Source: a virus (lineage: Duplodnaviria; Caudoviricetes). Taken from it: 64,000 bases of DNA. The translations under genes were made by a program, and so were the position numbers. The stretch lies in IMG/VR virus record IMGVR_UViG_3300027255_000165. The stretch is one strand, 5' to 3'. The notes beneath the pieces were generated by a model. The model was not told the DNA's origin. It did no database searches and worked only from the letters and a program-made list of their open reading frames with translations. Positions 51,646-64,000 of the stretch are shown here, one piece after another. Positions within the stretch are counted from its first letter, which is position 1. Every line of letters begins with the position of its first letter.

Positions 51646-54345
51646 TTATTTAATTGTTAAAGCGTTTTTCACTAAAGTATTAGTGTTTCCATTAACATCA
51701 GTAACTTCGAGTTCAAGGGTGTAATCACCTTTGTCCTCGAAGAGATATGTTAACCACTTATTACTGTAGTATATATCAGACATCGATGTACTGTTATTTC
51801 GTATCGTCCATCTGTATTTATTCTTTCCAGGCATCATTGATTTGTCTGCACTGAAAGTCATGTGAGTTAGTAGTTCAATTTCAGCATATGCTTCTGCAAT
51901 CTGAATATCATTGAATGTTGGATTATATGGCGTGTAATTAACTTTACCAGTAATTGTTACTGAACCAACCGAAGCTACCGCTTCATACACATCTTCAAAA
52001 TCGTATCTATTAGAATAATCCTTGCCGACCGCTAAAATGTATTTACAATAATCAATACCATTGGAAATTATTCCATCACCATCAACGTCTTTAAATACAG
52101 GATTATATGTAAATTTAGATAGAATTGGATCAGTCGATGCGTTCAAATCATTTGCAGCTGATTGCCATGCTGGAATATCGGTAGGATCAGTCAAATCAAC
52201 TGTAAATACATAAGTGCTATATTCGTACTGGTATGTCTGATAGTTAAAGTGTTCAATAGTAAATGAAGAACCTGGATCAGCATTTTCAATTTTGAATGAC
52301 GCAGTTAGGTCAGAACCGACTCTAGTTGCATCCCACCATGTGTGTTTACCGTCATTCCATTCATGTTTTCTAAGGTTTCTCCAGAAGTATGGACCTGGGG
52401 TTTCACCAAACCCGGTGGTTGATGAAGTGTCAACGTATCTTCTAACAGTTGAGAAGTTAACGCCTTGACTGTCATCGTTAACATAGTTCGCTCTATCTAA
52501 AGTCAAGTACAGTGTACCAATTTCTTGGTCAACAGTGTCGTTGTTTTGTTGTGGGAAACCCCATGAACCTCCTGCAACACCCCACTTAAAGTTTGAAGAT
52601 TGCCAATCATAGTACTCTCTGTCCATCCACCTGTACATGCCGTAAATCTCAAGTGACTTCATCTTAGCATGAATAGAGTTAGGATATGTCTCATTAGATA
52701 CATGGTTGAATAGATTAGTGTGTTCAATCTTAACATCATAAGATCCTTCATAAGGTAGAGCAATCGCTACCTTTAACATATCTGCAGTTTCACCTGTTAA
52801 AACCTGTGACCAACCCTTAGGACCTGTAATTGTCCAAGTCGTTTCATACACATCTCTCTTCCACCAGTTGTTCCAAGTCAGGTAAGTTACTGCGTCAGCA
52901 TCAATCCAAGTGAACTCAGCGTCTTCCCATGTATCAGGGAAGGACTTACACTCCAACTGAACCGGAGCTCCCACTGGAATATCTTCAAAAGATTCTTGGA
53001 ACGTTGATCTATTTAATTCGTAGTAATTGGTATAGAAGTCTTCAGTATCAGAATATAGGGCTGACATATCAACATCTGACAGTGATGAAAAGTCTTGTGT
53101 TTTACCAGTGTAAAGATCTGAAACCAATCTCAAATCCTCAATAAAAGGTTCTGTCTGGTGAATCTCAATCTTTGGGTCAACACCCGCTACGATAGTATCG
53201 ATTGGATTCTGATTGTTCCAAATGTTGGTATTATATGAATAGAAGAAGTCCGCTTCACCAATGATGTCAATGATCTTGGCATTCAGTGGAAGGTACTCTC
53301 TTTGTAGTTTGTTCTTAAGACCGTATAACTTGATTAGAACTTCGTCAGCGGTGAAGTCAAAAACTTCATCAACCTGTGGAGTGTCCCACTGATCAAAGTT
53401 ACCGTTAGGTGTGTTCAACTTATAGTACAGTCCAAAACGTGAAGTCTTTTTGTATGAAGATGAAGGTAGTTGAATACCCTTTAGTTTGTTAGATACGTAA
53501 GAACCTTTTGACGAAGATGGAATTTCAAACGCCTTTAGTTTACCAAACATTGGTGATCTATCGTCAACCACCAACCAATACTCCTTTAGTGTTAGATTGT
53601 TATATCCAAAGAATTTAATAGCGTTAATCAGCGCCTTATATGTACCAATGAACGGTTTAATGTTTGATAGTTCAAGTAGAAGTTCCTTTCTCTTACGGTT
53701 TAAGAGTTTCCAGTCAGTACCGACCTCGTTAATGTCATGATCTTTGAATAGGAATTGATCCGCAGTTGAAAGTGTTGCGCCAAAGTTTGAAAGTAGAACA
53801 CCCAGTCTTTCGTCCTCTCCAACTGTTTCACCGTAAAAGTGGATGATAGCGACCACGTGGTCGTCAATAGTGTCAATCAAATATAGGTCTCTACGATGTG
53901 AATCATCGCGTTCTGAGTTCAGAGCGACGTTAACCTGTAAAGCGTCTTTAGCGTATGAAGTTCCAAGGGTGTGAATACCTGATGAAGTTGAAACCGCAAC
54001 TGAGTTTGGTTGAGGATCTAAGATCTGAGAAGTTAGAGTTTCAACGTAAGGATCACCATCAACCAACTTAACACCAACCAAATTAATGTCCTTTGAAGAC
54101 TGATACCAATCTCTCCACTCCAACTTAAATTGAGAACCAATGTTAGACCCGACTGGTTTAACCAATACAGAAGCGCCAAGGGAGTTGTACGCCTCTTCTA
54201 GGATGAACAGGGACACTGACTCATATAATCCAGTAGATACCTCATCCATGTGAATGTATCCCTCAAACACTTCTGATGTGCTGTCGTATTCCAACTGCAC
54301 TTCATAGTTTGTACCATTAAAGAATCTTAGTCCTGAGTATCTCAT
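51646..54345 (-). CDS. Baseplate wedge-like protein with C-terminal PKD/Ig-like domains
   Basis: 899 aa. IKPFIGTYKALINAIKFFG; Ig-like segments EGSYDVKIE and KGDYTLELEVTDVNG. Confidence 0.6.
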   Translation of the reverse strand: MRYSGLRFFNGTNYEVQLEYDSTSEVFEGYIHMDEVSTGLYESVSLFILEEAYNSLGASVLVKPVGSNIGSQFKLEWRDWYQSSKDINLVGVKLVDGDPYVETLTSQILDPQPNSVAVSTSSGIHTLGTSYAKDALQVNVALNSERDDSHRRDLYLIDTIDDHVVAIIHFYGETVGEDERLGVLLSNFGATLSTADQFLFKDHDINEVGTDWKLLNRKRKELLLELSNIKPFIGTYKALINAIKFFGYNNLTLKEYWLVVDDRSPMFGKLKAFEIPSSSKGSYVSNKLKGIQLPSSSYKKTSRFGLYYKLNTPNGNFDQWDTPQVDEVFDFTADEVLIKLYGLKNKLQREYLPLNAKIIDIIGEADFFYSYNTNIWNNQNPIDTIVAGVDPKIEIHQTEPFIEDLRLVSDLYTGKTQDFSSLSDVDMSALYSDTEDFYTNYYELNRSTFQESFEDIPVGAPVQLECKSFPDTWEDAEFTWIDADAVTYLTWNNWWKRDVYETTWTITGPKGWSQVLTGETADMLKVAIALPYEGSYDVKIEHTNLFNHVSNETYPNSIHAKMKSLEIYGMYRWMDREYYDWQSSNFKWGVAGGSWGFPQQNNDTVDQEIGTLYLTLDRANYVNDDSQGVNFSTVRRYVDTSSTTGFGETPGPYFWRNLRKHEWNDGKHTWWDATRVGSDLTASFKIENADPGSSFTIEHFNYQTYQYEYSTYVFTVDLTDPTDIPAWQSAANDLNASTDPILSKFTYNPVFKDVDGDGIISNGIDYCKYILAVGKDYSNRYDFEDVYEAVASVGSVTITGKVNYTPYNPTFNDIQIAEAYAEIELLTHMTFSADKSMMPGKNKYRWTIRNNSTSMSDIYYSNKWLTYLFEDKGDYTLELEVTDVNGNTNTLVKNALTIK

Positions 54346-54617
54346 TACTTAACTTTCAAATAATCTTTTGGCATTGCAAATGCCTTAAACAGTTTTAGTT
54401 GTGTTACCGCTCTTGTTGAAGTAACAAACATGTCTTGAATGAACTCAATGAAATCTTTCATTGTTTCCTTTCTTTGAATGTGAGGTGATAGACCCTTGGT
54501 CATAAGGTCGTATGAATAGTCCCTACCTTCATTCAGTTTATAATCGTTGGCACTCTTGGTTATGTTATACTTTTTACCAAGCTTGTACTTATAAAGGTCT
54601 TTGTATAGATCGCTCAT
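54345..54617 (-). CDS. Small baseplate-cluster protein
   Basis: 90-aa ORF coupled to both neighbours. Confidence 0.55.
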   Translation of the reverse strand: MSDLYKDLYKYKLGKKYNITKSANDYKLNEGRDYSYDLMTKGLSPHIQRKETMKDFIEFIQDMFVTSTRAVTQLKLFKAFAMPKDYLKVK

Positions 54618-56446
54618 TAGATTGACTTTCTATTTGCTGCCTGAATTTGAGTGAAGACAGTTCTTGGAATTGGTTTAGCAAAGCTTACTGAAAGCGCAGC
54701 TGCTTCTCCAATCTTAGCATCATCGGCAATTGTTGAACCTGTTCTATCAGCCCATCCACCTCTAAACATCGCAACGTCTTCTTTACTCAGTGCAATATCT
54801 CCAAATTCATCTAGACCAGTGATAGACATTCTAACGTCAGCTGGAATTCCATCAGTGGCATTAAAGGTAATAGTGTTTGAAGTTACAGTTTTCTTAAAGA
54901 ATAGAATTCTGTTCTTACCATTGCCAACATCTTCTAGAACGGGGGTTTGTGGAGTGATAGTTGTCTGTGTTACTGTGTATGATCCTGTTCTTAGAGCGTC
55001 TTCTTCTGACTTAGATAGAAACTGAACGTTAACTGAGTCAATGCCATCGACTCCTTCTAGAAGGGCGACAATGTCAGACTTAGGCAATCTATCTCTTCTA
55101 GTGATAGACATTAAATACGTTGAAATCTTTCTTCTGATTTCAGCTAGAAGTTGAATTTCGTCAAATCCTTCAAAGTGACGAACCCAAATGTTCATAGCAT
55201 ACATTTTTGGCTTTGGATCAACGAATGAGATCTCAGTCGTTACCATCTGCTTACCTGATAACTCAATTGCTTCTCTAATGCCCTCAAGTTCAGATTGTGT
55301 AAAAAAGAATTCTTCGGTTGGAACGGAGAAATAATCTTGATTTGACTTTAGTTTTGACTTAACGTCAGGGAGAAGGAAAAGATAGATGATATTATCGTCA
55401 TCTAAATATTGATCATCAGTCTGTGAATATGCATCAACATAAGAGAACATATTGTATCTTGCTAGGAAGTGTTCGTAATTGTCTGGAGTTGCAAGTACAA
55501 ATGACTTAGATGTAAGAGGCGCAATTAGTTTTGTAAATTCAATTGATTCAGGATCTGCTCCCATTTTAGGAGAGGCGGTACTTCTGATTTCCAATAGATT
55601 ATTAAGGTCGTATTCATTTCCTAATGCATCATATCCTGGATCAACAAACTTATATGAAATATCAGGTGAATCGCCCAGATTTCCAGATCTGCCATTGGTT
55701 TTAATGTAATTAACTTCGATTACCGCACCGTTGTTAGGAATCTGTCCAAAGTTACCATTACCAAAGAATAAATCAATACCACCGGTGATACCAGTCTTAA
55801 TAACTACTCCCTTTGTAGAAGCGTTCATGTCATATAGAGATTCATATACTGTCCATTTCTCACCATTAACTGCAACGTCGACAATATCGTGGGCTGTAAC
55901 ACCTCCGGTTTGAATGTTAAAAGTTTGAAAAGGTTCACCTGACCCTGTGACATTCTGTGCTTGGGTTTCACCCTGAACGACAGGAACTTTAATATATCCT
56001 GCTAGGCCTTTTGAAATGCTAATTAAATCGGTCGAAGATCTTAATAAGTAAATTAAAGAGTTGTTATTAGATCTAATCTGAGAATTGGAATTAATATAAA
56101 GGGTATTTCCTGCAATTTCAGATTGCATACCCGGCTTCCATGTTATTTCAATCTCTCCCATCGCAGCAAATCCTCTAGTAGGATCATGGCCAGCCAATCT
56201 AGCTAGTCCATAGATGGATTCAGGCTGTTGAGCCGTGATAATGTTTTGTTCAACAGTCGCGTCTTCAATGTAATAGAAGATCATGTTAGTAAGCTCTGAC
56301 GCTACTTTAACCATCTGAGAAAACGGAGATGCAGTTGTGAAAATGCTTTCAGCATTACCGTAAACCCTGCTCAAATAGGTTCTAACGTCCTGTTGAATCT
56401 GTGTAACTGCAACTCTAGCAGTGTCAAGAAAATTGAATTGGGCCAT
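54617..56446 (-). CDS. gp6: Baseplate wedge subunit (gp6 / baseplate J-like)
   Basis: LARLAGHDP..G.AA, FFGNGNFGQIP, ESIEFTK.IAP...VLATPDNY; follows gp25. Confidence 0.75.
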   Translation of the reverse strand: MAQFNFLDTARVAVTQIQQDVRTYLSRVYGNAESIFTTASPFSQMVKVASELTNMIFYYIEDATVEQNIITAQQPESIYGLARLAGHDPTRGFAAMGEIEITWKPGMQSEIAGNTLYINSNSQIRSNNNSLIYLLRSSTDLISISKGLAGYIKVPVVQGETQAQNVTGSGEPFQTFNIQTGGVTAHDIVDVAVNGEKWTVYESLYDMNASTKGVVIKTGITGGIDLFFGNGNFGQIPNNGAVIEVNYIKTNGRSGNLGDSPDISYKFVDPGYDALGNEYDLNNLLEIRSTASPKMGADPESIEFTKLIAPLTSKSFVLATPDNYEHFLARYNMFSYVDAYSQTDDQYLDDDNIIYLFLLPDVKSKLKSNQDYFSVPTEEFFFTQSELEGIREAIELSGKQMVTTEISFVDPKPKMYAMNIWVRHFEGFDEIQLLAEIRRKISTYLMSITRRDRLPKSDIVALLEGVDGIDSVNVQFLSKSEEDALRTGSYTVTQTTITPQTPVLEDVGNGKNRILFFKKTVTSNTITFNATDGIPADVRMSITGLDEFGDIALSKEDVAMFRGGWADRTGSTIADDAKIGEAAALSVSFAKPIPRTVFTQIQAANRKSI

Positions 56447-56458
56447 GTCAGACGTTTA

Positions 56459-56815
56459 TTAGTTTACATACACTTGAACTTGATACTTCGAGTTAAGTGT
56501 AATGTTTATTTCTGCAATATCTCTAACGGTTCCCTTATAAAAAGAAACATTAGTCGATACTCTATATTTTCCAGCCAGTGGTACATATCTTTGAATTTGA
56601 TCCTCAATGGTTGAAGTAACCATACTCTCATTGTAATTAAGAGTGTATATCAAATCTTCAAGATTTGCTCCAAAATCTGGTTCGCCAAGAACATCACCTT
56701 TTCTAGTGAACAGAATAGTTTCAATCTGCGTGATGACCTTTGAGATCTCACTCTCAGAATGAACCTTATATGGATCGTAGTTTGGATCTCCTTCTGCTCT
56801 TACGTAAAATTCCAT
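56459..56815 (-). CDS. gp25: Baseplate wedge subunit gp25-like
   Basis: ILFTRKGDVLGEPDFGANL...IEDQIQRYVP. Confidence 0.85.
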   Translation of the reverse strand: MEFYVRAEGDPNYDPYKVHSESEISKVITQIETILFTRKGDVLGEPDFGANLEDLIYTLNYNESMVTSTIEDQIQRYVPLAGKYRVSTNVSFYKGTVRDIAEINITLNSKYQVQVYVN

Positions 56816-56835
56816 GGCTATCTTTATATATCACA

Positions 56836-57672
56836 TTACGAGTGCATCATCCAGTCGGTGCCCTCATCATTTTTGATTTCTTCAATCACTTTATCTAATT
56901 CATCCTGCCCCATTGACTGAATAATGTCAGCGTTAATCGTAATGCCACCTGGAAGATTGTAACCAAAAATAGCTAATTTCTGACCTAGTGAAATCATAAC
57001 CTTTGCGGCCACGTATCTGAAGAAGATTTCATCTGCAAATAATGCACAGTCTGGAAGAGTTTCGTAAATCTCTAGAACGACGGGTTTAGTTGGTGTTTGA
57101 CCTGTAAATTTCAATTCATGTGTCTGCTGTGAATAGTGGAAAGACAATGGGTTTTCAAGAATCTGACGAGCCATGTCAAAGAAAGATTCGTTAATTACAA
57201 AGTACTGTAAGTTTTCTGCACCTGCAACAATTGATGCACCACCTGAATAAAGAGAACCAAACAGTGCTCTTTGAACGTCAAAGTCACCTGTTGTGAAAGT
57301 GATAGCAGAACCTGCACCGTATCTTGAACCAATTTCAGCAACGGCATAAACAGCATACACTTCGTTTCCTCCTGTTGCAGGATTCTCTTTAGGTAGTGTT
57401 AATGATCTACGTCTTCTGAAGTGATCAGTGTCAAACACCTCAACTGGAATGTACAAGAAGTTCTCAGTCACTGAGTACTCATACGTTTTGTAAAACCACT
57501 TCTTTGCACGCTTAATGATGTTATACACCTCCGACTTAGGTAGGTTCATAGGAATCATACATGCACCTGTAACATGACTTCCGATTTCGTCAATGAAATC
57601 GTTTAGGCAATTAGAATCGTAATCTGGTGGGGTGGTTAGATTGTCTAAATCACCAATAAAAATATCACCCAT
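56836..57672 (-). CDS. gp13: Neck / head-completion protein (gp13-like)
   Basis: RYVAAKVMISLGQKLAIFGYNLPGGITINADII resembles gp13 QWG.NL.KF...LPGG..LNG. Confidence 0.7.
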   Translation of the reverse strand: MGDIFIGDLDNLTTPPDYDSNCLNDFIDEIGSHVTGACMIPMNLPKSEVYNIIKRAKKWFYKTYEYSVTENFLYIPVEVFDTDHFRRRRSLTLPKENPATGGNEVYAVYAVAEIGSRYGAGSAITFTTGDFDVQRALFGSLYSGGASIVAGAENLQYFVINESFFDMARQILENPLSFHYSQQTHELKFTGQTPTKPVVLEIYETLPDCALFADEIFFRYVAAKVMISLGQKLAIFGYNLPGGITINADIIQSMGQDELDKVIEEIKNDEGTDWMMHS

Positions 57673-57676
57673 TTCT

Positions 57677-58969
57677 TTAGTTTATTTTTTTAGAGTTTAT
57701 CACCTCGGTCTTATCAAACTTGGCGAACTTCTCGCTATATTTACCCTCTCTAAAAATACCACCCGACATAGTACCTTTAAAAACACTGTCGGTTCCAAAT
57801 ACATAGCAGTTATTTAGAGTGCAACTGTTATGAGTGTAGCATGATTGAACCTTTGACCCATCAACCTGAGTCGACTGGTAAAGATTACTTCGCTGAATAT
57901 CAGATCCATTAATTTGGCATCTGTAAAAATCGCTTAAGATTGCTTCGCCTCTAAACTTGCAATCTACGAATTCATAACCCTCCAAACCATGGGCTCCTAA
58001 GAAAACACCATCTTTAACCTGAACCCTTGAACGATCAGTGTCGTAGTTAATATGACCCTCTGACATTCCACCCTCTGAAATAAGTTTTACAACTTGGGTT
58101 TTAATGTTAGACCAGAACATGTCAATAGTTTCACCGTGGTTCTGAAGATCAAGAGTAAAATCAATCTTTTGAAAATTCTTAAAGTTACGATGATCCTTGT
58201 AAAGGTCGTAAATCTTTTTCATGTTTGACATGATTCTTCTTAACTCAAGGCGATTAAGCTCTGTTAAATCAGGATTCTTACATGTGTTCCAGAGTTGAAT
58301 TAGAAAACTGTCAAGTAAATGAAGAATTGTTGAAGTCTTCTTTTCATAATCTTTACCGCCCAGGTATCTAAATTCTAGGTACCCTTTCTCCTGTTTTAAG
58401 AAGTTAACACCATAATACTTGGTGTCTGGATATTTAAACTGCATTTTAGAGATGTGATTTTCATCAAAGTTAAACAGCTCATTCTTAGGCAGAACGTACT
58501 TGATTGACTTGGCGTAAACAAGATCTCTACGTTCAGGAAAGTGTTTATACACCTGTTCTTCTTTAAAGTCCAAGATGAACTTTAAAGTGTTCATGTGAGT
58601 GATAAAGTTTGAACCCACAATCTTTTTGTCAAACGATACATTAAGGTGAATACCCGCTCTATCAGTAGTGTGACCGTTTTCCGAGATCCAATGTAACATC
58701 TTAATGATGATCAGTCTGGCATCAGGATACGGCAATGCACCAGTCACCATCTCAATGAGACCGGCACCACCTGACATATCAGGCTCCAACTTAAACACCT
58801 TATCGGACGGTTGAAAATCTGAGTGAGCCTTTTCTTCTACCTGAATCTTACGACCCAGATATTCACCGACCATCTCAGCTGTTTTTTCAACACTGTGATT
58901 CGAGTAAAACTCAAATTCAATGCCGCAAAATGAATGAAGGAGTATATCCTTGTTTGCTTCGTTTAACAT
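57677..58969 (-). CDS. Putative amidoligase (COOH-NH2 ligase) with a C-terminal beta-helix
   Basis: GIEFEF, LEPDMS...IEMVT, RAGIHLNVS, KYYGVN and LEFRYLG. Repetitive C-terminus. Confidence 0.75.
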   Translation of the reverse strand: MLNEANKDILLHSFCGIEFEFYSNHSVEKTAEMVGEYLGRKIQVEEKAHSDFQPSDKVFKLEPDMSGGAGLIEMVTGALPYPDARLIIIKMLHWISENGHTTDRAGIHLNVSFDKKIVGSNFITHMNTLKFILDFKEEQVYKHFPERRDLVYAKSIKYVLPKNELFNFDENHISKMQFKYPDTKYYGVNFLKQEKGYLEFRYLGGKDYEKKTSTILHLLDSFLIQLWNTCKNPDLTELNRLELRRIMSNMKKIYDLYKDHRNFKNFQKIDFTLDLQNHGETIDMFWSNIKTQVVKLISEGGMSEGHINYDTDRSRVQVKDGVFLGAHGLEGYEFVDCKFRGEAILSDFYRCQINGSDIQRSNLYQSTQVDGSKVQSCYTHNSCTLNNCYVFGTDSVFKGTMSGGIFREGKYSEKFAKFDKTEVINSKKIN

Positions 58970-59031
58970 GCAGTAGACACTATCTTACTATTTAAGTTTA
59001 TATATCTACCGCACCGGGTAGCGGTTTAGAC

Positions 59032-59063
59032 ACAAGCTCAGTTACCGAAATAACTGAGCTTGT
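59032..59063. other. Perfect 13-bp inverted repeat (hairpin)
   Basis: ACAAGCTCAGTTA-CCGAAA-TAACTGAGCTTGT; the minus-strand loop contains TTCG. Confidence 0.85.
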
Positions 59064-59094
59064 AACTAAGTAGTAATTAAGTAGTAACTAAGAA
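59063..59094. repeat. Three tandem 11-bp repeats
   Basis: TAACTAAGTAG TAATTAAGTAG TAACTAAGAA. Confidence 0.75.
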
Positions 59095-60441
59095 TTATGC
59101 ACCGATAACTCTCAAGAATACTTTCTTGGTATCTTCATCAACCTTAGTAACCTCTACTACAATTTCCTGACCCTTTTGGAAAGTGTCTCTCAATACTGTA
59201 CCTTCTGGGAACTCAGAGATGTGTGCCATACCTACCACTGAACCGTGAACGGCGATGAATAAACCGTAATCTTTAATTGATCTGATGGTAGCGTTTTCAA
59301 CCAGCGTCGGTAACTTTAAACCTTTAGTGAATTCTTCCCATGAGTTATCAACCTTCATCTCAGACTTTTCCTTTTGAGTCAAGATGATCTTTTCGTTACT
59401 GACAATTTCTTTGATTTTGAAGGTAACTTCATCACCAGGATTTACAGTACCATTTTTGTGAGAATTGAATAACTCAGGTGATAGGTCATTAACGTGAATC
59501 ATACCCGTCAAACATGTATTAAATTCAACGAATACACCGTATTTTGCAGTACCTGTTACGTTACCTTTAATTTCAGAATCGATATTAGCTTGTAGGTTTT
59601 CAATTTCTCTAGGAATCATTGCCTGTAAGTATTTTCGGTGAGAAACCACGATTGTACCTCTCTTAGACGAGAATGAATCAGGTACCACGTACATCTGAGC
59701 ACCGACAATTGAACTAAAGTCATGCAGTTTATTAATACCCGCAAGTGAACCGGGCATAAAACATTGGATACCTTGAACGAGTACAAGGTAACCTCCACCC
59801 GGGATCATCTCTTTAATAGTACCTAGGTATGCTGTATCTCCATCGTCAGCTGCTTGTCTAAGTTCTGCAAACACCTTTTGTTTAGTTCCTTCAGTGATAG
59901 AAGCAACTGCGTATTCTCTAACGTCAGTTTTATCACTTAAAACTTTTACAGCAACTTCGTCTCCAGGTCTAACGTCTGCAATAACGTCTCTATCTTCTCT
60001 TGACAAATCAATGTACAACATTTCACGATAATTAATATCGACTGTTGCCCATTTTTCACTCATCGAGTGGATTCTTCCAACTTCAACAGCACCTACGGTT
60101 AATTCAGAGATACCGTCGTCAAATTGAACGGTAGACAATAAATTATACATTTCTTGAGCATAAGGCTCGTGACAGTACACCACGTCTTTGTGGGAACCTG
60201 TCTTAATCTTAGTGTTGGGTTTGAGTTTTCGGTTGTAATAAGACTCGTATCTGTCCCAATCAAATTCTCCAGTTGGAGTTAAGAATTCGTCTGTAGATGA
60301 ATCAAATTCATCAAGGTTGACTTCTACCTCTTCTTTTTCAACTTCAGTTACCTCTACTTTAATTTGTTTTTTGTTAGAGTTTTCTTGAAGTCTTCTTCGC
60401 TTTTGAGTACCATTATTGGTACCGTTGTTTTGATTTGTCAT
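59095..60441 (-). CDS. rpsA: Ribosomal protein bS1 homolog (four S1 domains)
   Basis: Successive S1 repeats: VGRIHSM..KWATVDIN; GTIKEMIPGGGYLV...FMPGS...VVSHRK; GNVTGTAKYGVFVEF...GMIHVNDLS; SIKDYGLFIAV...GMAHISEF. Confidence 0.82.
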   Translation of the reverse strand: MTNQNNGTNNGTQKRRRLQENSNKKQIKVEVTEVEKEEVEVNLDEFDSSTDEFLTPTGEFDWDRYESYYNRKLKPNTKIKTGSHKDVVYCHEPYAQEMYNLLSTVQFDDGISELTVGAVEVGRIHSMSEKWATVDINYREMLYIDLSREDRDVIADVRPGDEVAVKVLSDKTDVREYAVASITEGTKQKVFAELRQAADDGDTAYLGTIKEMIPGGGYLVLVQGIQCFMPGSLAGINKLHDFSSIVGAQMYVVPDSFSSKRGTIVVSHRKYLQAMIPREIENLQANIDSEIKGNVTGTAKYGVFVEFNTCLTGMIHVNDLSPELFNSHKNGTVNPGDEVTFKIKEIVSNEKIILTQKEKSEMKVDNSWEEFTKGLKLPTLVENATIRSIKDYGLFIAVHGSVVGMAHISEFPEGTVLRDTFQKGQEIVVEVTKVDEDTKKVFLRVIGA

Positions 60442-60481
60442 TTATGTTTAATTTAAAGGTGTAAAATACTAATTATATAAC

Positions 60482-60946
60482 TCACTTCTTTTTATAGCGG
60501 TCGTCTCCCTTGACAATAGCACCTGCAACAGCCCTATCAACTGCTTTTCCAAGCGCTTGCATAAGAGTTAGTGTGAGAGCATGGGATAAATTTGCTACGT
60601 TATTAATACCGTCGGCTTTTGCCTTTTCATTCGCGGCTTGAATGTCGGGATTATTGTCTTTGGTTTTCGTCTTTTTAATCGTATCCATGCCGAAGGCAGA
60701 TGAAATAGCCTTGTACCAATCGAGAGGAGCGTCGCCGTAGATAGGGTTGGCCTTTAGTTGTTCCCTATACAATTTATCTCTGTCAGTGGTCTTTTTAGGA
60801 TTAGGTTGTGATCCGCCTCCTTTTTGGCCGCCTCCACCGCCTCCACCGCCAGTATTTGCAGCGTTATCGGTGTTCATGTTATTGCCACCGCCGCCATCGG
60901 TTGCATTTCCGACTCCCGTGTTGTTTGTATCTTTACCGTCAGCCAT
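60482..60946 (-). CDS. Gly/Asn-rich hypothetical protein following gp5
   Basis: 154 aa with poly-Gly runs, then a helical C-terminus. Confidence 0.55.
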   Translation of the reverse strand: MADGKDTNNTGVGNATDGGGGNNMNTDNAANTGGGGGGGGQKGGGSQPNPKKTTDRDKLYREQLKANPIYGDAPLDWYKAISSAFGMDTIKKTKTKDNNPDIQAANEKAKADGINNVANLSHALTLTLMQALGKAVDRAVAGAIVKGDDRYKKK

Positions 60947-60947
60947 C

Positions 60948-61700
60948 TTAGTTAACTTTTACCTTTGTTGATTTGGTAGGTGGAATCTTAGCAGCAATAA
61001 CGGGAATTGAAGAAGTCAAATTCGTAGCCGCAGTTGCAGCTGCTGTAGCAGCGGTCCCCAACGGCACTGCAAGCGGAGCAGCACTCAAAATAGGAAGTGA
61101 GGCTGCCGCAACACCTGCCGATGCGAGAGCTGTCATGTTTGTTGATAGATTGGTTAGATCAATTGCTAGCTTTTGCAACGTGTTCTTAATTTCGTTAAGG
61201 GCATCTTCATTTTTATCACCTAACACGGCAGGTTCTTCTGAACCTCCACCCATTCCAACGAGATGCAATAGATCAGCGGCCTGAAATAGGCCTTCACCGG
61301 CTGAACCAATCAACTTAACACCCTCTGATGAGTTCCAATACAGTTGCATTCTCGATGGGTCATAGAAAAGTGAGACCACTCCCATTGCACCATTCGCAGA
61401 TACCATGTCTGAAACTTCTTGACGTGCCTTAGCCTGAAAGAAATAAACTGGAGTGTATAAGTTTCCGTTATCAAATCTAACAGAAACAATGTCACCTACG
61501 GCTGGAACCGCAAATTGACCATGTGAATCATTAGAACCGCAAAGGGCCCATGGAAGATCTTCATCAGGAATTAGATCAAACTTACCAAAAATGCGTATCC
61601 TACAACGGCCCTGATTTGATGGATCTTCGTTATTAACGATTTCTCCTAACCAGTGCGAATCTCTTAAATTATCTTGAAAAAGCTCTTTAATAGAGTCCAT
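60948..61700 (-). CDS. gp5: Baseplate hub / spike protein with gp5 N-terminal OB-fold
   Basis: WLGEIVNNEDPSNQGRCRIRIFG...LPWA...VPAVGDIVSVRFDNGNLYTPVYF; no lysozyme domain. Confidence 0.8.
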   Translation of the reverse strand: MDSIKELFQDNLRDSHWLGEIVNNEDPSNQGRCRIRIFGKFDLIPDEDLPWALCGSNDSHGQFAVPAVGDIVSVRFDNGNLYTPVYFFQAKARQEVSDMVSANGAMGVVSLFYDPSRMQLYWNSSEGVKLIGSAGEGLFQAADLLHLVGMGGGSEEPAVLGDKNEDALNEIKNTLQKLAIDLTNLSTNMTALASAGVAAASLPILSAAPLAVPLGTAATAAATAATNLTSSIPVIAAKIPPTKSTKVKVN

Positions 61701-62881
61701 TATTCGTAGTTGTTTCCAAGGTTAGACTTCGTGTTAGCTGCTTCGTTTAGATTATTTATCATTGGAAATATGGAAGCAATCGAACCCTGTCTTAATGCCG
61801 CTCCGACGGTGGCACCTTCAGCTCCGAATATGTTTGTCACAATTGACTGTTTAAAGGAAGTTGCGGCATCTTTTGCAATGGCCTCACTCTGTCCAAATAT
61901 GTTATCTACAGCTCCTCCTAAACCGCCTGCATAGCTGTCAACTTGATTAATGGCCTGTTGATATGCCTGTTCAAGATCACTACCATATACGTTGACAGGC
62001 TTGCTAATAGCGTTTAGTGGATTATTCTCTCTAATAGCACCTGTTAAACTGTCAATTGCACTGTTAGTTATTTGACCAACGTCCTGCGACAATCTATCAC
62101 CGACACCCTGGATTTTAGTTCTAGCGTCACTATCACTGCTTACGCCTAAATCACCTGTACTTTCTGTCATCAACCCCTGTAAATATGAAGTTGCAGTTTT
62201 CTTAATAGTTTCGTAACTAATTTCAATCTTAGGTGAAGGGCTTTCAGGCGCTGCGTTGCTTAATGTTTCAAATGTTTCTTTAGCAGACTTAATATTGAAC
62301 TCGCAGAAATTAAATTCATACTGAAACAACGGCTTAAAGTCACCTGATATTTCAGCGTTCTTTGTTTCAGATCCAAGCAAACCCTTTTTGAATTCTGTGT
62401 TAATGTCTCTAATCTCAGAAACCATAATCCACATTCTAAATCCTCTAATATTCTTTGGTAGAACCTGGGTCCATGCTGCAAAATCATAAACCGAATCCCT
62501 ATATAAATCCATCAAACCAGAAATTGCAAGATTGATTGATTCATTGCAAGTGATAGTTAGTTTGGCCTCATCACCTCCCCAATAAGGCTCAGTCATGTTA
62601 TAGTCTAAAACCCTTGTCATTCCATCTAATGAAACCCAATACCATGGCATTTCACGATTAATCAAGAGCATGGTATCAACAAATCTTTCAAGCTTATCGG
62701 CTCTTTCAGTTTCTTTATAATGCTCTCTTAGAGTTTTAACGGCAATATCTTTATTAAAAAGAGGAGACGTAGTATCAAATAAAATTGTAAAGCTCAAATA
62801 CGTAGGATCTTGATAAGGGTTCTTTGAACTCTTACCTAGTAATCCTTTTCTAAATTGTATTTGATTTGTACCAGTTGCCAT
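61700..62881 (-). CDS. Baseplate / tail-tube initiator-like protein (gp48/gp54 family candidate)
   Basis: DPTYLSFTILFD, LTITCNESI and YEFNFCEF tube-fold patterns; position between hub and spike. Confidence 0.5.
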   Translation of the reverse strand: MATGTNQIQFRKGLLGKSSKNPYQDPTYLSFTILFDTTSPLFNKDIAVKTLREHYKETERADKLERFVDTMLLINREMPWYWVSLDGMTRVLDYNMTEPYWGGDEAKLTITCNESINLAISGLMDLYRDSVYDFAAWTQVLPKNIRGFRMWIMVSEIRDINTEFKKGLLGSETKNAEISGDFKPLFQYEFNFCEFNIKSAKETFETLSNAAPESPSPKIEISYETIKKTATSYLQGLMTESTGDLGVSSDSDARTKIQGVGDRLSQDVGQITNSAIDSLTGAIRENNPLNAISKPVNVYGSDLEQAYQQAINQVDSYAGGLGGAVDNIFGQSEAIAKDAATSFKQSIVTNIFGAEGATVGAALRQGSIASIFPMINNLNEAANTKSNLGNNYE

Positions 62882-62891
62882 ATCCTATATA

Positions 62892-64000
62892 TTAGTTTCC
62901 TGCAGGGGCTGTCATTTTCTCAACAACCTGTTGTCTAACTGGCCATTCTTTTCTAGATAAATGAAGAACCTGATTGATTCCATCTTCACCATTATACTTA
63001 TATTCGATTCCCATGATAACGTAATATCCAGTTAGAAATTCATCGACTTTAAAAGCTTCCGCTTGATTATCGTCCTCAGTCTTGGTTTGATTCTTACCGG
63101 ATTCCATCTGTTCTTGCTTCACTTCGAAACCAGCCTCTTCTGCCTTTTCATTTTCAGTATTAGCTACCGCGTTACTAGTGTTAGAGTAATTATAAATGGT
63201 AACTGGAATCTTCATGTATCGATACAACGCAGGGTTATTGGTTGACAACTCGACTATTAACTTCATCTTATCTAATTCAACCATATTTTGAACATTATTA
63301 ATAGATGAATAGGCATAGTTTAAATGAACGTTATCCGCAGAGTGTTGCATTCCAATGTACTTATGCTTGACAATAGTACCATATTCATCTTCCTTTGAAG
63401 TTTGATTACCCTTTAAAGGTACTTCGTTGTCTTTAATCGTGGAACTAACTAAGGATTCAACATCAAACTCAAGAAGCTTTCCGCCCTCTTCATTCATATC
63501 AAAATACTGCAAGGTTCTCTTGTATCCATTTTCAAGAGCTACCTGAGTTGACATGTTAATTAGGTTATATGAGACAATGTGGGTTGCCGTACCTTCTACA
63601 TTGTGGTGATTCGTTAAAATTAATTCAGCCTTGTTTTCAGCTGAACCTTCCTTTGGATCTTCTTTTCTTTCATCAAACAGGGTTGCTGAAATAAGTTCAT
63701 CCATTTCAACTTCTTCTTCAGAATTGAAAACCTTTTGAACGTCAACAAAGTTTACGTAATAATATGGATCAATGGAATAGGTTTGAAAAGTTTCATCTGA
63801 AATGTAAGAGTGCAAAACAGTCTTATCTAATAATTCATACTTAGATTGAAATGCCGCAATTCTTACCATTTGATCGTCTGTTGCGTCTACATTAGTCGCA
63901 ACCCCTAACTTCATATCTTTAGCGATTGAAATGACATGGTCATACGAGTTTCCTAAACCGTAACTTTTGCAACTGTCATTATAAAATTCTGGAATCTTTG
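62892..64000 (-). CDS. Baseplate hub protein (gp27-like), 5' end beyond the window
   Basis: The frame stays open from 63914 to the window edge (..KIPEFYNDSCKSYGLGNSYDHVISIAKDM..). C-terminal TGYYVIMGIEYKY...LHLSRKEW is typical of hub proteins. Confidence 0.6.
   Translation of the reverse strand, partial: KIPEFYNDSCKSYGLGNSYDHVISIAKDMKLGVATNVDATDDQMVRIAAFQSKYELLDKTVLHSYISDETFQTYSIDPYYYVNFVDVQKVFNSEEEVEMDELISATLFDERKEDPKEGSAENKAELILTNHHNVEGTATHIVSYNLINMSTQVALENGYKRTLQYFDMNEEGGKLLEFDVESLVSSTIKDNEVPLKGNQTSKEDEYGTIVKHKYIGMQHSADNVHLNYAYSSINNVQNMVELDKMKLIVELSTNNPALYRYMKIPVTIYNYSNTSNAVANTENEKAEEAGFEVKQEQMESGKNQTKTEDDNQAEAFKVDEFLTGYYVIMGIEYKYNGEDGINQVLHLSRKEWPVRQQVVEKMTAPAGN

What the first reader, a model, noticed from the sequence alone, without database searches (positions are those of the whole stretch)
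59095..60441. Phage-encoded ribosomal protein bS1 homolog inside the virion gene cluster
Seen: four S1 repeats, an acidic N-terminal region with EFDWDRYE and a VVSHRK motif. As I recall, these resemble Bacteroidota RpsA (DFNWDAYE and VVSHK). The gene lies between baseplate and neck genes. Known: bS1 recruits mRNAs through AU-rich leaders independently of Shine-Dalgarno pairing, and ribosomal protein genes including S1 have been reported in huge phages. Inference: a truncated 4-domain bS1 (host protein about 6 domains) could re-specify ribosomes toward the A/T-rich leaders of late phage mRNAs.
Basis: partly seen in the sequence, partly recalled or inferred. Interest (0 to 1): 0.8.

Follow-up and report, generated by a model that had tools for sequence, protein, structure and literature searches.

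The report
Phage four-domain ribosomal protein S1 copy
A large marine phage carries a shortened copy of bacterial ribosomal protein S1 that keeps the parts used to dock on the ribosome of Bacteroidia hosts; such phage S1 genes were reported in 2020, so this is a well-supported example of a known kind, not a new one.

Summary
ORF 59095-60441 (-) encodes a 448-aa protein with four OB/S1 domains, an acidic N-terminal region, EFDWDRYE and VVSHRK. It lies between a gp5-like baseplate hub gene and a gp13-like neck gene.

- **Homology:** best sequence and fold matches are all ribosomal bS1, not Tex, PNPase or CvfB. Domain 2 matches only bS1 domain 2.
- **Family:** it belongs to a large, coherent group of about 370-450-aa phage proteins. 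This group includes the "possible rpS1" of a published 462-kb huge phage with the same gene order.
- **Origin:** two host-type signatures point to Bacteroidota. The F-D/N-W helix occurs in 26/30 Bacteroidia RpsA and 0/53 others. The SH[KR] end of domain 2 is the second.
- **Docking:** a 2026 cryo-EM study shows the F-N-W helix anchors Flavobacterium bS1 on the 30S subunit. A predicted complex of the phage N-terminus with F. johnsoniae uS2 passed its controls (0.63 vs 0.42) and reproduces the E. coli bS1-uS2 contacts.
- **Context:** genes here lack Shine-Dalgarno sites, and the gene has a late-type promoter-like motif.

Most likely it is a late-made substitute or supplement for host bS1. Re-specification toward phage mRNAs is untested. 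The scan's first readers noted the same family in six other genomes. Verdict: new member of a known kind.

The parts
59095..60441 (-). Whole gene for the 448-aa phage bS1 homologue (P0001), stop codon included
   Evidence: ORF list and translation; Pfam S1; NCBIfam rpsA models; bS1 chains are the best PDB matches by sequence and by fold
60292..60441 (-). Residues 1-50: disordered N-terminal extension. It has a basic KKRxR-type patch followed by an acidic stretch; this part is phage-specific
   Evidence: pLDDT below 50 for residues 1-50; consensus 'KKRxRI' in the 30-sequence alignment
60238..60270 (-). Residues 58-68, helix 1 with G-E-F-D-W-D-R-Y-E. It is the counterpart of the F-N-W helix of Bacteroidia bS1 that sits on the 30S subunit
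   Evidence: Helix 62-68 in the model; F60 invariant and E59, D61, W62 at least 90% conserved; motif in 26/30 Bacteroidia RpsA and 0/53 other cellular S1; alignment; cryo-EM of F. johnsoniae 30S places FLANFNWHNF against uS8 (PMC13000457)
60133..60168 (-). Residues 92-103, helix 2 (P-Y-A-Q-E-M-Y-N-L). It is the counterpart of the E. coli bS1 N-terminal helix (S-F-A-Q-L-F) that stacks on uS2
   Evidence: Helix 95-102; A95 and Q96 invariant; residues 94, 95, 97, 98, 101 and 105 contact uS2 in the predicted complex; E. coli contacts Phe5, Phe9, Gln7 and Glu10 with uS2 (PMC10123108)
59890..60093 (-). Residues 117-184, OB domain 1 (degenerate S1 fold, docking domain). The loop Y138-R139-E140 is aligned with Lys43 of E. 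coli bS1
   Evidence: Model; Y138 and R139 invariant; alignment of R139 with K43; R139 has the lowest-error contacts with uS2 residues 204-207
59632..59835 (-). Residues 203-270, OB domain 2. It is the most conserved domain, is specific to bS1 domain 2 and ends in VVSHRK
   Evidence: Long runs of invariant residues at 212-271; local alignment score 89 to E. coli D2 against at most 32 to any other E. coli domain; SH[KR] signature
59368..59580 (-). Residues 288-358, domain 3: canonical RNA-binding S1 domain
   Evidence: Best Pfam S1 stretch 286-355; invariant G293, V295, G302, F304, G313 and H316
59104..59313 (-). Residues 377-446, domain 4: canonical RNA-binding S1 domain. The protein ends two residues later, with no further domains
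   Evidence: Second Pfam stretch; GSP13- and PNPase-type S1 matches at 383-443; invariant G393, F395, G404, H407 and S409
60473..60481 (-). GTTATATAA, 31 nt upstream of the ATG (its TATATAA core begins at -38). It is a one-mismatch copy of the GATATATA late-type promoter-like motif
   Evidence: Sequence. Relatives have GATATATA at -35 (L003) and -44 (L082) and GGTATATAA at about -59 (TATATAA core at -57, L001) before their S1 genes. There are 7 GATATATA in the window, all on the coding strand, against 2.2 expected
59032..59063 (-). Perfect 13-bp hairpin 32 nt after the stop codon, with no U-tract. The next gene's GATATATA follows at 58999-59006
   Evidence: Sequence; fold of the downstream region, -32.7 kcal/mol; motif positions
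60948..61700 (-). Upstream neighbour (one small gene between): gp5-type baseplate hub/spike OB-domain protein
   Evidence: Pfam Phage_base_V; PHROG baseplate hub families; same position in relatives
57677..58969 (-). Downstream neighbour: 430-aa Amidoligase_2-like protein, conserved next to the S1 gene in distant relatives
   Evidence: Faint PF12224 in relatives; Atlas clusters with Amidoligase_2 in 14-19% of members, score 0.97; tblastn synteny
56836..57672 (-). gp13-type neck protein gene
   Evidence: PHROG head-tail adaptor; PF26809 Phage_T4_gp13 in the orthologues

Best explanation
The gene encodes a phage-lineage copy of ribosomal protein bS1. It probably descends from a Bacteroidota (most likely Bacteroidia) rpsA gene and now forms its own fast-evolving family of four-domain proteins in large T4-like phages.

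Proposed mechanism:
1. Two short N-terminal helices and the Arg139 loop of domain 1 dock the protein on the 30S subunit. Docking occurs at the site that host bS1 uses (uS2, with uS8 nearby).
2. Domain 2 and the two canonical S1 domains then hold single-stranded, A-rich mRNA leaders near the mRNA channel.
3. The protein is made with the late structural genes.
4. It replaces or supplements the loosely bound host bS1, so that Shine-Dalgarno-less phage mRNAs keep being initiated efficiently.

What is shown: homology to bS1, domain order, conservation of the docking elements, host-type signatures, conserved gene position and absence of Shine-Dalgarno sites.

What is inferred: actual 30S binding, late timing, and any preference for phage over host mRNAs.
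For: **Homology**
- rpsA models give E 1e-38 to 1e-20; TIGR00717 aligns residues 113-443 with model positions 15-340 of 516.
- E. coli bS1 is the best solved relative. bS1 chains take Foldseek ranks 1-9, with E down to 4.5e-24.
- Domain 2 matches only bS1 D2.

**Family**
- More than 1000 homologues were found.
- All short four-domain proteins, including huge phages LR756500 and LR756501, lie on one side of a split with 100% support.

**Bacteroidota origin**
- The F-D/N-W helix occurs in 26/30 Bacteroidia RpsA against 0/53 others.
- SH[KR] ends domain 2.
- The AU test does not reject a phage+Bacteroidia clade; the constrained tree is 5.1 lnL units better, p 0.553.

**Docking**
- F. johnsoniae cryo-EM shows bS1 residues 4-40, including FLANFNWHNF, bound to uS2 and uS8 (PMC13000457).
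- The predicted complex of residues 52-205 with F. johnsoniae uS2 scored 0.63 against 0.42 for the best control. This mark was reached by 51 of 78 solved complexes and 2 of 108 mismatched pairs. The runs agree in at least 78% of contacts, and the partner's pLDDT is at least 70.
- The contacts (helix 2, and R139 into uS2 residues 204-207) mirror E. coli Phe5/Phe9 and Lys43 (PMC10123108).
- 6 of 12 conserved positions in residues 90-181 lie in the predicted interface, p 0.02.

**Sufficiency of four domains**
- E. coli S1 lacking D5-D6 supports near-normal growth, and D1-D3 keep the 30S-dependent activities (PMC3858243).

**Context**
- Only 6 of 58 genes have a Shine-Dalgarno-like 4-mer, which equals background, and their leaders are A-rich.
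- A late-type motif lies upstream here and in relatives.
- The gene order is conserved from 38% to 100% identity and in a 462-kb huge phage.
Against: - Scores are far below the curated rpsA cut-offs (about 120-130 bits against 370-920).
- The family sits on a long branch. In the unconstrained tree it falls outside all bacterial RpsA.
- Domain 1 is very diverged, with local score 27-37 to cellular D1.
- The Arg139 position is not conserved across the wider phage family, and only 19 of 73 wider-family members keep the F-x-W helix.
- The complex prediction can pass from memory of solved bS1-uS2 structures, and one control reached 0.42.
- A multiple alignment put helix 2 in a register two residues off the structural one.
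- Late expression is unusual for a take-over factor.
- There is no biochemical evidence, and the host is inferred, not known.
Confidence: 0.55

Rival explanations
1. It is a free RNA chaperone or mRNA-protecting protein that works off the ribosome. It would use its two canonical S1 domains to bind A/U-rich phage RNAs, for example to shield them from host RNases or to serve a phage RNA-processing enzyme, as host S1 does for T4 RegB and Q-beta replicase.
For: - Domains 3 and 4 are canonical S1 domains.
- bS1 has known extraribosomal roles with phages (PMC13157829).
- Al-Shayeb et al. left open a role 'on or off the ribosome'.
- Domain 1 is strongly diverged.
Against: The parts conserved best are the non-RNA-binding docking elements: helix 1, helix 2, the Y-R-E loop and domain 2. 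They carry host-lineage-specific ribosome-anchor signatures. The predicted uS2 interface passed its controls.
Confidence: 0.2
2. It is a competitive blocker. It occupies the bS1 site on uS2 and thereby shuts off host translation that needs full-length six-domain bS1, without itself promoting initiation.
For: It has the same docking evidence as the main explanation. It lacks two C-terminal domains that the host protein has. Some late genes of this genome were noted by other first readers as possibly leaderless (unchecked).
Against: It keeps two intact RNA-binding domains under strong conservation. E. coli D1-D4 is functional, not inhibitory (PMC3858243). Phage genes here mostly have A-rich leaders that would themselves need S1-type recruitment.
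Confidence: 0.1
3. It is a virion component. Either it is a structural OB-fold part of the baseplate/neck, or it is a packaged protein delivered with the DNA that acts on host ribosomes at the very start of infection.
For: The gene holds a fixed position inside the baseplate/neck module over deep divergence. It has a late-type promoter motif. It carries a phage-specific disordered N-terminal extension.
Against: There is no similarity to any known virion protein (PHROGs: no hit). A purely structural role would not explain conserved RNA-binding residues and ribosome-anchor motifs. Phage bS21 genes also sit among structural genes without being structural (PMC9723584).
Confidence: 0.1

Closest known systems
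Ribosomal protein bS1 (RpsA) of class Bacteroidia, e.g. Flavobacterium johnsoniae bS1 (591 aa)
   Same: - Helix-loop-helix N-terminus with the F-D/N-W motif.
- Degenerate D1 and bS1-specific D2 ending in VVSH[KR].
- Canonical S1 domains after D2.
- Predicted docking on uS2.
- Acts in a system without Shine-Dalgarno pairing.

   Different: - Four domains instead of six.
- About 25 extra residues between the two helices.
- A 50-residue disordered basic/acidic extension.
- Arg instead of Lys at the loop tip.
- Scores about 100-127 bits to the phage profile and far below rpsA cut-offs.
- Separated by a long branch.

'Possible rpS1' genes of huge phages (Al-Shayeb et al. 2020, e.g. LR756500.1) and of Lak megaphages
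   Same: Same protein family. LR756500.1 is 35% identical and has the same neighbours: unk340, unk393, gp5 hub, S1, amidoligase-like, gp13. These phages also have few Shine-Dalgarno sites and predicted Bacteroidetes hosts.
   Different: That paper reported the genes without showing that they are 'true' rpS1. The docking motifs, the Bacteroidia-specific helix, the family's extent and the conserved baseplate position were not described in the text read. The Lak and LR756501 copies lack this gene neighbourhood within 9 kb.
Phage-encoded bS21 of Bacteroidetes-infecting phages (Chen et al. 2022)
   Same: A small-subunit initiation protein of host type, encoded among structural genes and transcribed late. 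It is proposed to substitute for the host protein on Bacteroidetes ribosomes. bS21 stabilises the bS1 N-terminus on the F. johnsoniae 30S.
   Different: It is a different protein. No bS21 homologue was found in this 64-kb window; the rest of the genome could not be searched.
bS1 of Microcystis jumbo phage PhiMa05 (2026)
   Same: A phage-encoded bS1 homologue.
   Different: PhiMa05's copy groups with a specific cellular lineage (Vampirovibrio-like) as a recent acquisition, along with five other ribosomal proteins. The present family is an old, phage-only clade.
Four-domain S1 of Firmicutes and Actinobacteria
   Same: Four S1 domains and a length of about 390 aa.
   Different: There is no F-x-W helix and no SH[KR] signature. 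The Clostridia S1 sequences included in the tree (IspH-S1 fusion type) fall with cellular RpsA, not with the phage family. True four-domain Firmicutes or Actinobacteria S1 was not sampled as named rows.

Membership tests
Ribosomal protein bS1 (RpsA; TIGR00717 / PRK06299 equivalogs) | Tandem S1/OB domains, colinear with the bS1 domain order | tested here: met
   TIGR00717 aligns residues 113-443 with model positions 15-340 of 516. E. coli-type bS1 chain 9qqq_V aligns query 155-444 with its residues 60-345. The model has four OB domains.
Ribosomal protein bS1 (RpsA; TIGR00717 / PRK06299 equivalogs) | Score above the curated whole-protein cut-off of an rpsA equivalog model | tested here: not met
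   The best scores are 130 bits against a cut-off of 524, and 121 against 577. Partly expected, since two domains are missing, but domains 1-4 are also strongly diverged.
Ribosomal protein bS1 (RpsA; TIGR00717 / PRK06299 equivalogs) | bS1-specific, non-canonical domain 2 | tested here: met
   Phage D2 scores 89 to E. coli D2 and at most 32 to D1 and D3-D6. It scores 76 to Flavobacterium-type D2.
Ribosomal protein bS1 (RpsA; TIGR00717 / PRK06299 equivalogs) | N-terminal helix and domain-1 loop that anchor the protein on uS2 | tested here: inconclusive
   Helix 2 (Y-A-Q-E-M) and R139 align with E. coli F-A-Q-L-F and K43. They form the interface of a predicted complex that passed its controls (0.63 against 0.42). 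This is in silico only and may reflect memory of solved complexes.
Ribosomal protein bS1 (RpsA; TIGR00717 / PRK06299 equivalogs) | Physical presence on the 30S subunit | not testable with these tools
   Needs co-sedimentation, competition or cryo-EM experiments.
Ribosomal protein bS1 (RpsA; TIGR00717 / PRK06299 equivalogs) | Branches within cellular RpsA | tested here: inconclusive
   In the free tree the phage family is one side of a 100% supported split against all cellular RpsA. A tree holding phage+Bacteroidia together is not rejected and is slightly better (p-AU 0.553).
Bacteroidia-type bS1 | F-[DN]-W helix upstream of domain 1 (30S contact in F. johnsoniae) | tested here: met
   The motif sits at residues 60-62. 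It occurs in 26/30 Bacteroidia RpsA, 0/25 other Bacteroidota, 0/28 other long S1 and 119/123 of the window's clade. Its structural role is described in PMC13000457.
Bacteroidia-type bS1 | Six S1 domains, about 590-600 aa | tested here: not met
   The phage protein has 448 aa and four domains. Host-type proteins have open frames of 587-765 aa and cover the rpsA model to position 514. The FCB group always has six domains (PMC6705787).
Huge-phage four-domain S1 family (no formal name) | About 370-450 aa, four domains, in the clade that includes LR756500 and LR756501; encoded on phage contigs | tested here: met
   Single-stretch scores are 174-665 bits for short proteins against at most 147 for cellular ones. 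Supported by the tree and by baseplate genes next to four independent members.
Non-ribosomal S1-domain proteins (CvfD/GSP13/Ygs, PNPase, RNase R/II, Tex, NusA, CvfB) | Best match to one of these families, with their accessory domains | tested here: not met
   These families match only one domain, at E 4e-19 to 2e-5 and below all rpsA models. By fold, CvfB-like 3go5 is at rank 10, and PNPase, RNase R and NusA have E above 1e-4. No catalytic or accessory domain is present.

The most novel reading that the evidence does not exclude
The phage S1 is a specificity subunit rather than a spare part. Its double anchor (Bacteroidia-type F-D-W helix plus uS2 helix and Arg loop) and its basic N-terminal extension would let it displace the loosely bound host bS1. 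Its two RNA-binding domains would then favour the short, A-rich or leaderless late phage leaders. Ribosomes would thus be reprogrammed late in infection, or at the very start if the protein is packaged in the virion, given its fixed place in the baseplate/neck module.
Probability: 0.25. Interest if true: 0.75.

Novelty: new member of a known kind. Interest (0 to 1): 0.48.

Why it matters
Phage-encoded ribosomal proteins blur the line between viruses and cells. For S1, the original report said true rpS1 could not be told from other S1-domain proteins.

This analysis adds three things:
- The huge-phage S1 genes form one coherent family.
- The family keeps the ribosome-docking elements of host-type bS1, including a Bacteroidia-specific helix whose role on the 30S subunit was seen by cryo-EM only in 2026.
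- The gene sits in a fixed place among late structural genes.

Because purified F. johnsoniae ribosomes, bS1 and initiation assays now exist, the question becomes directly testable: does a phage S1 bind host ribosomes, and does it change which mRNAs they start on? The answer bears on how translation starts without Shine-Dalgarno pairing.

Tried and rejected
- **Own genome:** the window's assembly is not held. The nearest record, G001, is a 20-kb fragment without the gene, so the rest of the genome could not be searched for bS21, initiation factors or similar genes.
- **PHROGs:** no family matched the protein.
- **Megablast:** the 10-kb region found nothing among phage records.
- **Genome-contig scan:** it returned only phage-like contigs binned into MAGs, including a Flavobacteriaceae MAG and an 'Erysipelotrichaceae' rumen MAG, and single-domain matches. 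It returned no cellular RpsA. Cellular RpsA was fetched by family search instead.
- **Free tree:** the quick tree put the phage family outside all bacteria. I do not read this as a pre-bacterial origin, because the AU test shows the placement is not resolved.
- **Full-sequence scores:** these suggested some long cellular proteins were close. Single-stretch scores showed this was repeat summation.
- **Helix 2 register:** MAFFT aligned helix 2 two residues off the Y-A-Q = F-A-Q register. The predicted contacts fit the latter, so the register remains uncertain.
- **Domain identity:** D3 and D4 could not be assigned uniquely to E. coli D3-D5.
- **bS21:** tblastn of a Flavobacterium-type bS21 against the window gave nothing (best E 0.46).
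- **Metatranscriptomes:** contigs from estuary and salt-marsh runs lie on the gene at 97-100% identity. The runs were chosen with this gene and DNA carry-over cannot be excluded, so I treat this only as weak evidence of transcription.
- **Promoter and terminator scans:** sigma-70-type and terminator scans gave no enrichment.
Full report
**1. The observation**

The window has an ATG-started ORF at 59095-60441 on the minus strand, encoding 448 aa.
- Pfam finds the S1 domain (E 1.3e-20), with two stretches above threshold.
- An AlphaFold2 model built on 30 homologues has mean pLDDT 75.7. It shows a disordered N-terminus (1-50) and two short helices (62-68, 95-102).
- The model then has four OB domains, at 119-181, 205-267, 290-355 and 379-445. 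The protein ends directly after the fourth.
They are conserved; F60 and V265-R269 are invariant in the 30-sequence alignment.
- The N-terminal 50 residues hold a basic patch (consensus KKRxRI) followed by an acidic run.

**2. Surroundings**
- 57 of 58 long ORFs in the window are on the minus strand.
- In transcription order the neighbourhood is:
  - two unknown proteins (340 and 393 aa);
  - a gp5-type hub with the Phage_base_V OB domain;
  - a 154-aa Gly-rich protein;
  - the S1 gene;
  - a 430-aa Amidoligase_2-like protein;
  - a gp13-type neck protein;
  - gp25-type and gp6-type baseplate proteins.
- The same order is found around homologues at 63%, 46% and about 38% identity. A fourth, more rearranged contig keeps S1 near gp6, gp25 and the amidoligase-like gene.
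- The same order is also present in the published 462-kb huge phage LR756500.1.

**3. Is it bS1 or just an S1-domain protein?**
- The eleven best NCBIfam hits are all rpsA models (E 8e-38 to 5e-20) and are colinear. TIGR00717 aligns residues 113-443 with model positions 15-340 of 516.
- Single-domain families (CvfD/GSP13, PNPase, RNase R, IF2-alpha) follow with weaker, one-domain matches.
- E. coli bS1 chains head the PDB sequence search (2e-32).
- bS1 chains in ribosome complexes take Foldseek ranks 1-9 (E down to 4.5e-24). CvfB-like 3go5 is at rank 10, and PNPase, RNase R and NusA are above 1e-4.
- Domain by domain, phage D2 scores 89 against E. coli D2 and at most 32 against any other domain. 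D2 is the bS1-specific, non-canonical domain, so this is diagnostic.
- Phage D3 and D4 are canonical S1 domains and resemble E. coli D3, D4 and D5 about equally. Whether D5-D6 were cut off or an internal domain was lost cannot be told.
- The protein scores far below the curated rpsA cut-offs (about 120-130 bits against 370-920). It is a diverged relative, not an equivalog.

**4. The family**
- A word-indexed search found 1259 homologues. The top 120 are 405-452 aa long and 46-100% identical, from marine and other metagenomes.
- An exhaustive profile search showed many further clusters of about 340-420-aa four-domain proteins.
- With single colinear stretches, all short proteins score 174-665 bits. 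No six-domain cellular protein exceeds 147, and Bacteroidia RpsA score 97-143 (most 100-127).
- In a 128-row tree, the 73 short proteins lie on one side of a 100% supported split from 55 cellular RpsA. The 73 include the window's clade, LR756500 and LR756501.
- Four members checked lie next to baseplate genes on phage-like contigs.
- The nearest named phage records are the huge phages of Al-Shayeb et al. (30-35% identity) and the Lak Prevotella megaphages (30%).

**5. Origin and host**
- The F-[DN]-W motif upstream of domain 1 is found in 26 of 30 Bacteroidia RpsA. It is found in 0 of 25 RpsA from other Bacteroidota classes and 0 of 28 other long cellular S1.
- The same motif is in 119 of 123 proteins of the window's clade and 19 of 73 of the wider phage family. 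One Bacteroidia RpsA reads L-S-P-T-G-E-F-N-W-D-A-Y-E-S, against the phage's L-T-P-T-G-E-F-D-W-D-R-Y-E-S.
- The end of domain 2 is S-H-K in 31/31 Bacteroidia and S-H-[KR] in 30/30 other Bacteroidota. It is mostly S-R-[RK] elsewhere (3 of 40 S-H-[KR]). It is S-H-[RK] in 28 of the 32 phage-family proteins where the site was located.
- The free tree places the phage family outside all bacterial RpsA on a long branch. An AU test does not reject a tree holding the phage family and Bacteroidia RpsA together; that tree is 5.1 log-likelihood units better, p-AU 0.553.
- I read this as an old capture of a Bacteroidota, probably Bacteroidia, rpsA, followed by domain loss and fast divergence.
- The host is most likely a marine member of the Bacteroidia, for these reasons:
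  - the DNA is held in marine metagenome runs;
  - a 46%-identical relative sits on a contig binned into a Flavobacteriaceae MAG that also has its own normal RpsA;
  - genes in the window have no Shine-Dalgarno enrichment (6 of 58 against 8.8% background) and A-rich leaders, as in Bacteroidia (PMC7797042).

**6. Docking on the ribosome**
- In E. coli, bS1 is anchored on uS2 in four ways (PMC10123108):
  - Phe5/Phe9 of the N-terminal helix stack on uS2 Phe32;
  - Gln7 and Glu10 add contacts;
  - Lys43 at the tip of loop 2 enters the uS2 pocket Asp188/Asn203/Asp204/Asp205;
  - Phe79 stacks on uS2 His18.
- In F. johnsoniae 30S subunits, bS1 residues 4-40 form a helix-loop-helix associated with uS2 and uS8. 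The helix FLANFNWHNF was placed against uS8 (PMC13000457).
- The phage protein has both elements. Helix 1 (G-E-F-D-W-D-R-Y-E) aligns with the F-N-W helix. Helix 2 (P-Y-A-Q-E-M-Y-N-L, with A95 and Q96 invariant) aligns with the E. coli S-F-A-Q-L-F helix.
- About 25 extra residues lie between the two helices. The loop Y138-R139-E140 (Y and R invariant) aligns with L42-K43-S44.
- A predicted complex of residues 52-205 with F. johnsoniae uS2 (Swiss-Prot RS2_FLAJ1) supports binding.
  - The score was 0.63 in all three runs; the best of three controls was 0.42.
  - That mark was reached by 51 of 78 solved complexes and 2 of 108 mismatched pairs.
  - The runs agree in at least 78% of contacts, and the partner's pLDDT is at least 70.
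- The interface uses residues 94, 95, 97, 98, 101 and 105 of helix 2, and 125-126, 133, 135, 138-141, 143 and 176-177 of D1. R139 has the lowest-error contacts, to uS2 204-207. This is the E. coli mode.
- Because such complexes are solved, the pass shows likeness, not that this copy binds.
- Six of the twelve conserved positions in residues 90-181 lie in the predicted interface (hypergeometric p 0.02).
- Against this, the Arg is not kept across the wider family, and D1 as a whole is very diverged.

**7. Function**
- E. coli S1 without D5-D6 supports nearly normal growth, and D1-D3 keep mRNA binding, 30S binding and unwinding (PMC3858243). A four-domain protein can therefore do the job.
- In F. 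johnsoniae, bS1 is loosely bound and sub-stoichiometric, and it stimulates initiation on SD-less mRNAs. An exchangeable site exists.
- Expression is probably late.
  - The gene is preceded by GTTATATAA (60481-60473), a one-mismatch copy of GATATATA.
  - GATATATA occurs seven times in the window, always on the coding strand, against 2.2 expected.
  - Relatives have GATATATA at -35 and -44, and GGTATATAA at about -59 (core at -57), before their S1 genes.
  - A perfect 13-bp hairpin follows the stop codon, then the next gene's own GATATATA.
- This parallels phage bS21 of Bacteroidetes phages, which sits among structural genes and is transcribed late (PMC9723584).
- Short contigs from estuary and salt-marsh metatranscriptomes lie on the gene. 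This is weak evidence only.
- My best reading (0.55) is a late-made protein that takes or shares the bS1 site and keeps SD-less phage mRNAs initiating.
- Whether it prefers phage leaders is not addressed by any result here.
- The rivals are an off-ribosome RNA chaperone (0.2), a site blocker (0.1) and a virion or packaged protein (0.1).

**8. Novelty**
- Al-Shayeb et al. (PMC7162821) reported S1 among the ribosomal proteins of huge phages. They noted proteins 'with up to six' S1 domains and a correlation with missing Shine-Dalgarno sites. They also said that true rpS1 is hard to confirm.
- Mizuno et al. set S1-domain hits aside for the same reason. PhiMa05 carries a recently acquired bS1.
- The present gene is an orthologue, by sequence and gene order, of one of the huge-phage genes. 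It is therefore a new member of a known kind.
- New here are:
  - the delimitation of the family;
  - the two Bacteroidota signatures;
  - the match of helix 1 to a ribosome contact seen by cryo-EM in 2026;
  - the predicted uS2 interface;
  - the conserved late and structural context.
- First-stage notes of this scan describe the same family in six other genomes. They are unchecked and were not used as evidence.

Noticed in passing
window 57677-58969 (-): A 430-aa protein with faint Amidoligase_2 (PF12224) similarity lies directly after the S1 gene. It stays next to or near S1 in relatives down to about 28-42% identity, including huge phage LR756500.1. Whether it acts on S1, on ribosomes or on virion proteins is unknown.
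   Followed up: partly
window 11829, 30996, 35466, 45705, 51770, 56825, 58999 (all - strand): GATATATA occurs 7 times against 2.2 expected, always on the coding strand. Where checked (56825-56832 and 58999-59006) it lies in intergenic DNA 8-30 nt before a start codon. It resembles a T4-type late promoter (TATAAATA).
   Followed up: partly
window 59032-59063 (-): A perfect 13-bp hairpin with a 6-nt loop lies 32 nt after the S1 stop codon and has no U-tract. Relatives also have a hairpin or a GATATATA motif in this spacer.
   Followed up: partly
window 60482-60946 (-): A 154-aa protein with long Gly/Asn runs sits between the hub gene and S1. The gene at this position varies greatly among relatives (137, 367 or 610 aa).
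   Followed up: no
L004 / G002 contig C26; L005 / G003 contig C23: Phage-like contigs with the S1-baseplate block are binned into a Flavobacteriaceae MAG, which also has its own RpsA, and into a rumen 'Erysipelotrichaceae' MAG. These are either host links or mis-binning.
   Followed up: no
window 60400-60441 (-), residues 1-15: A conserved basic N-terminal patch (consensus KKRxRI) precedes the acidic stretch. It recalls the basic N-terminal extensions reported for phage bS21.
   Followed up: no
window 1-64000: 57 of 58 long ORFs are on the minus strand. Upstream regions are A-rich and G-poor, with no Shine-Dalgarno enrichment.
   Followed up: yes
window 54000-64000: Short contigs of four estuary and salt-marsh metatranscriptome runs match S1, the amidoligase-like gene and hub genes at 95-100% identity.
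   Followed up: partly
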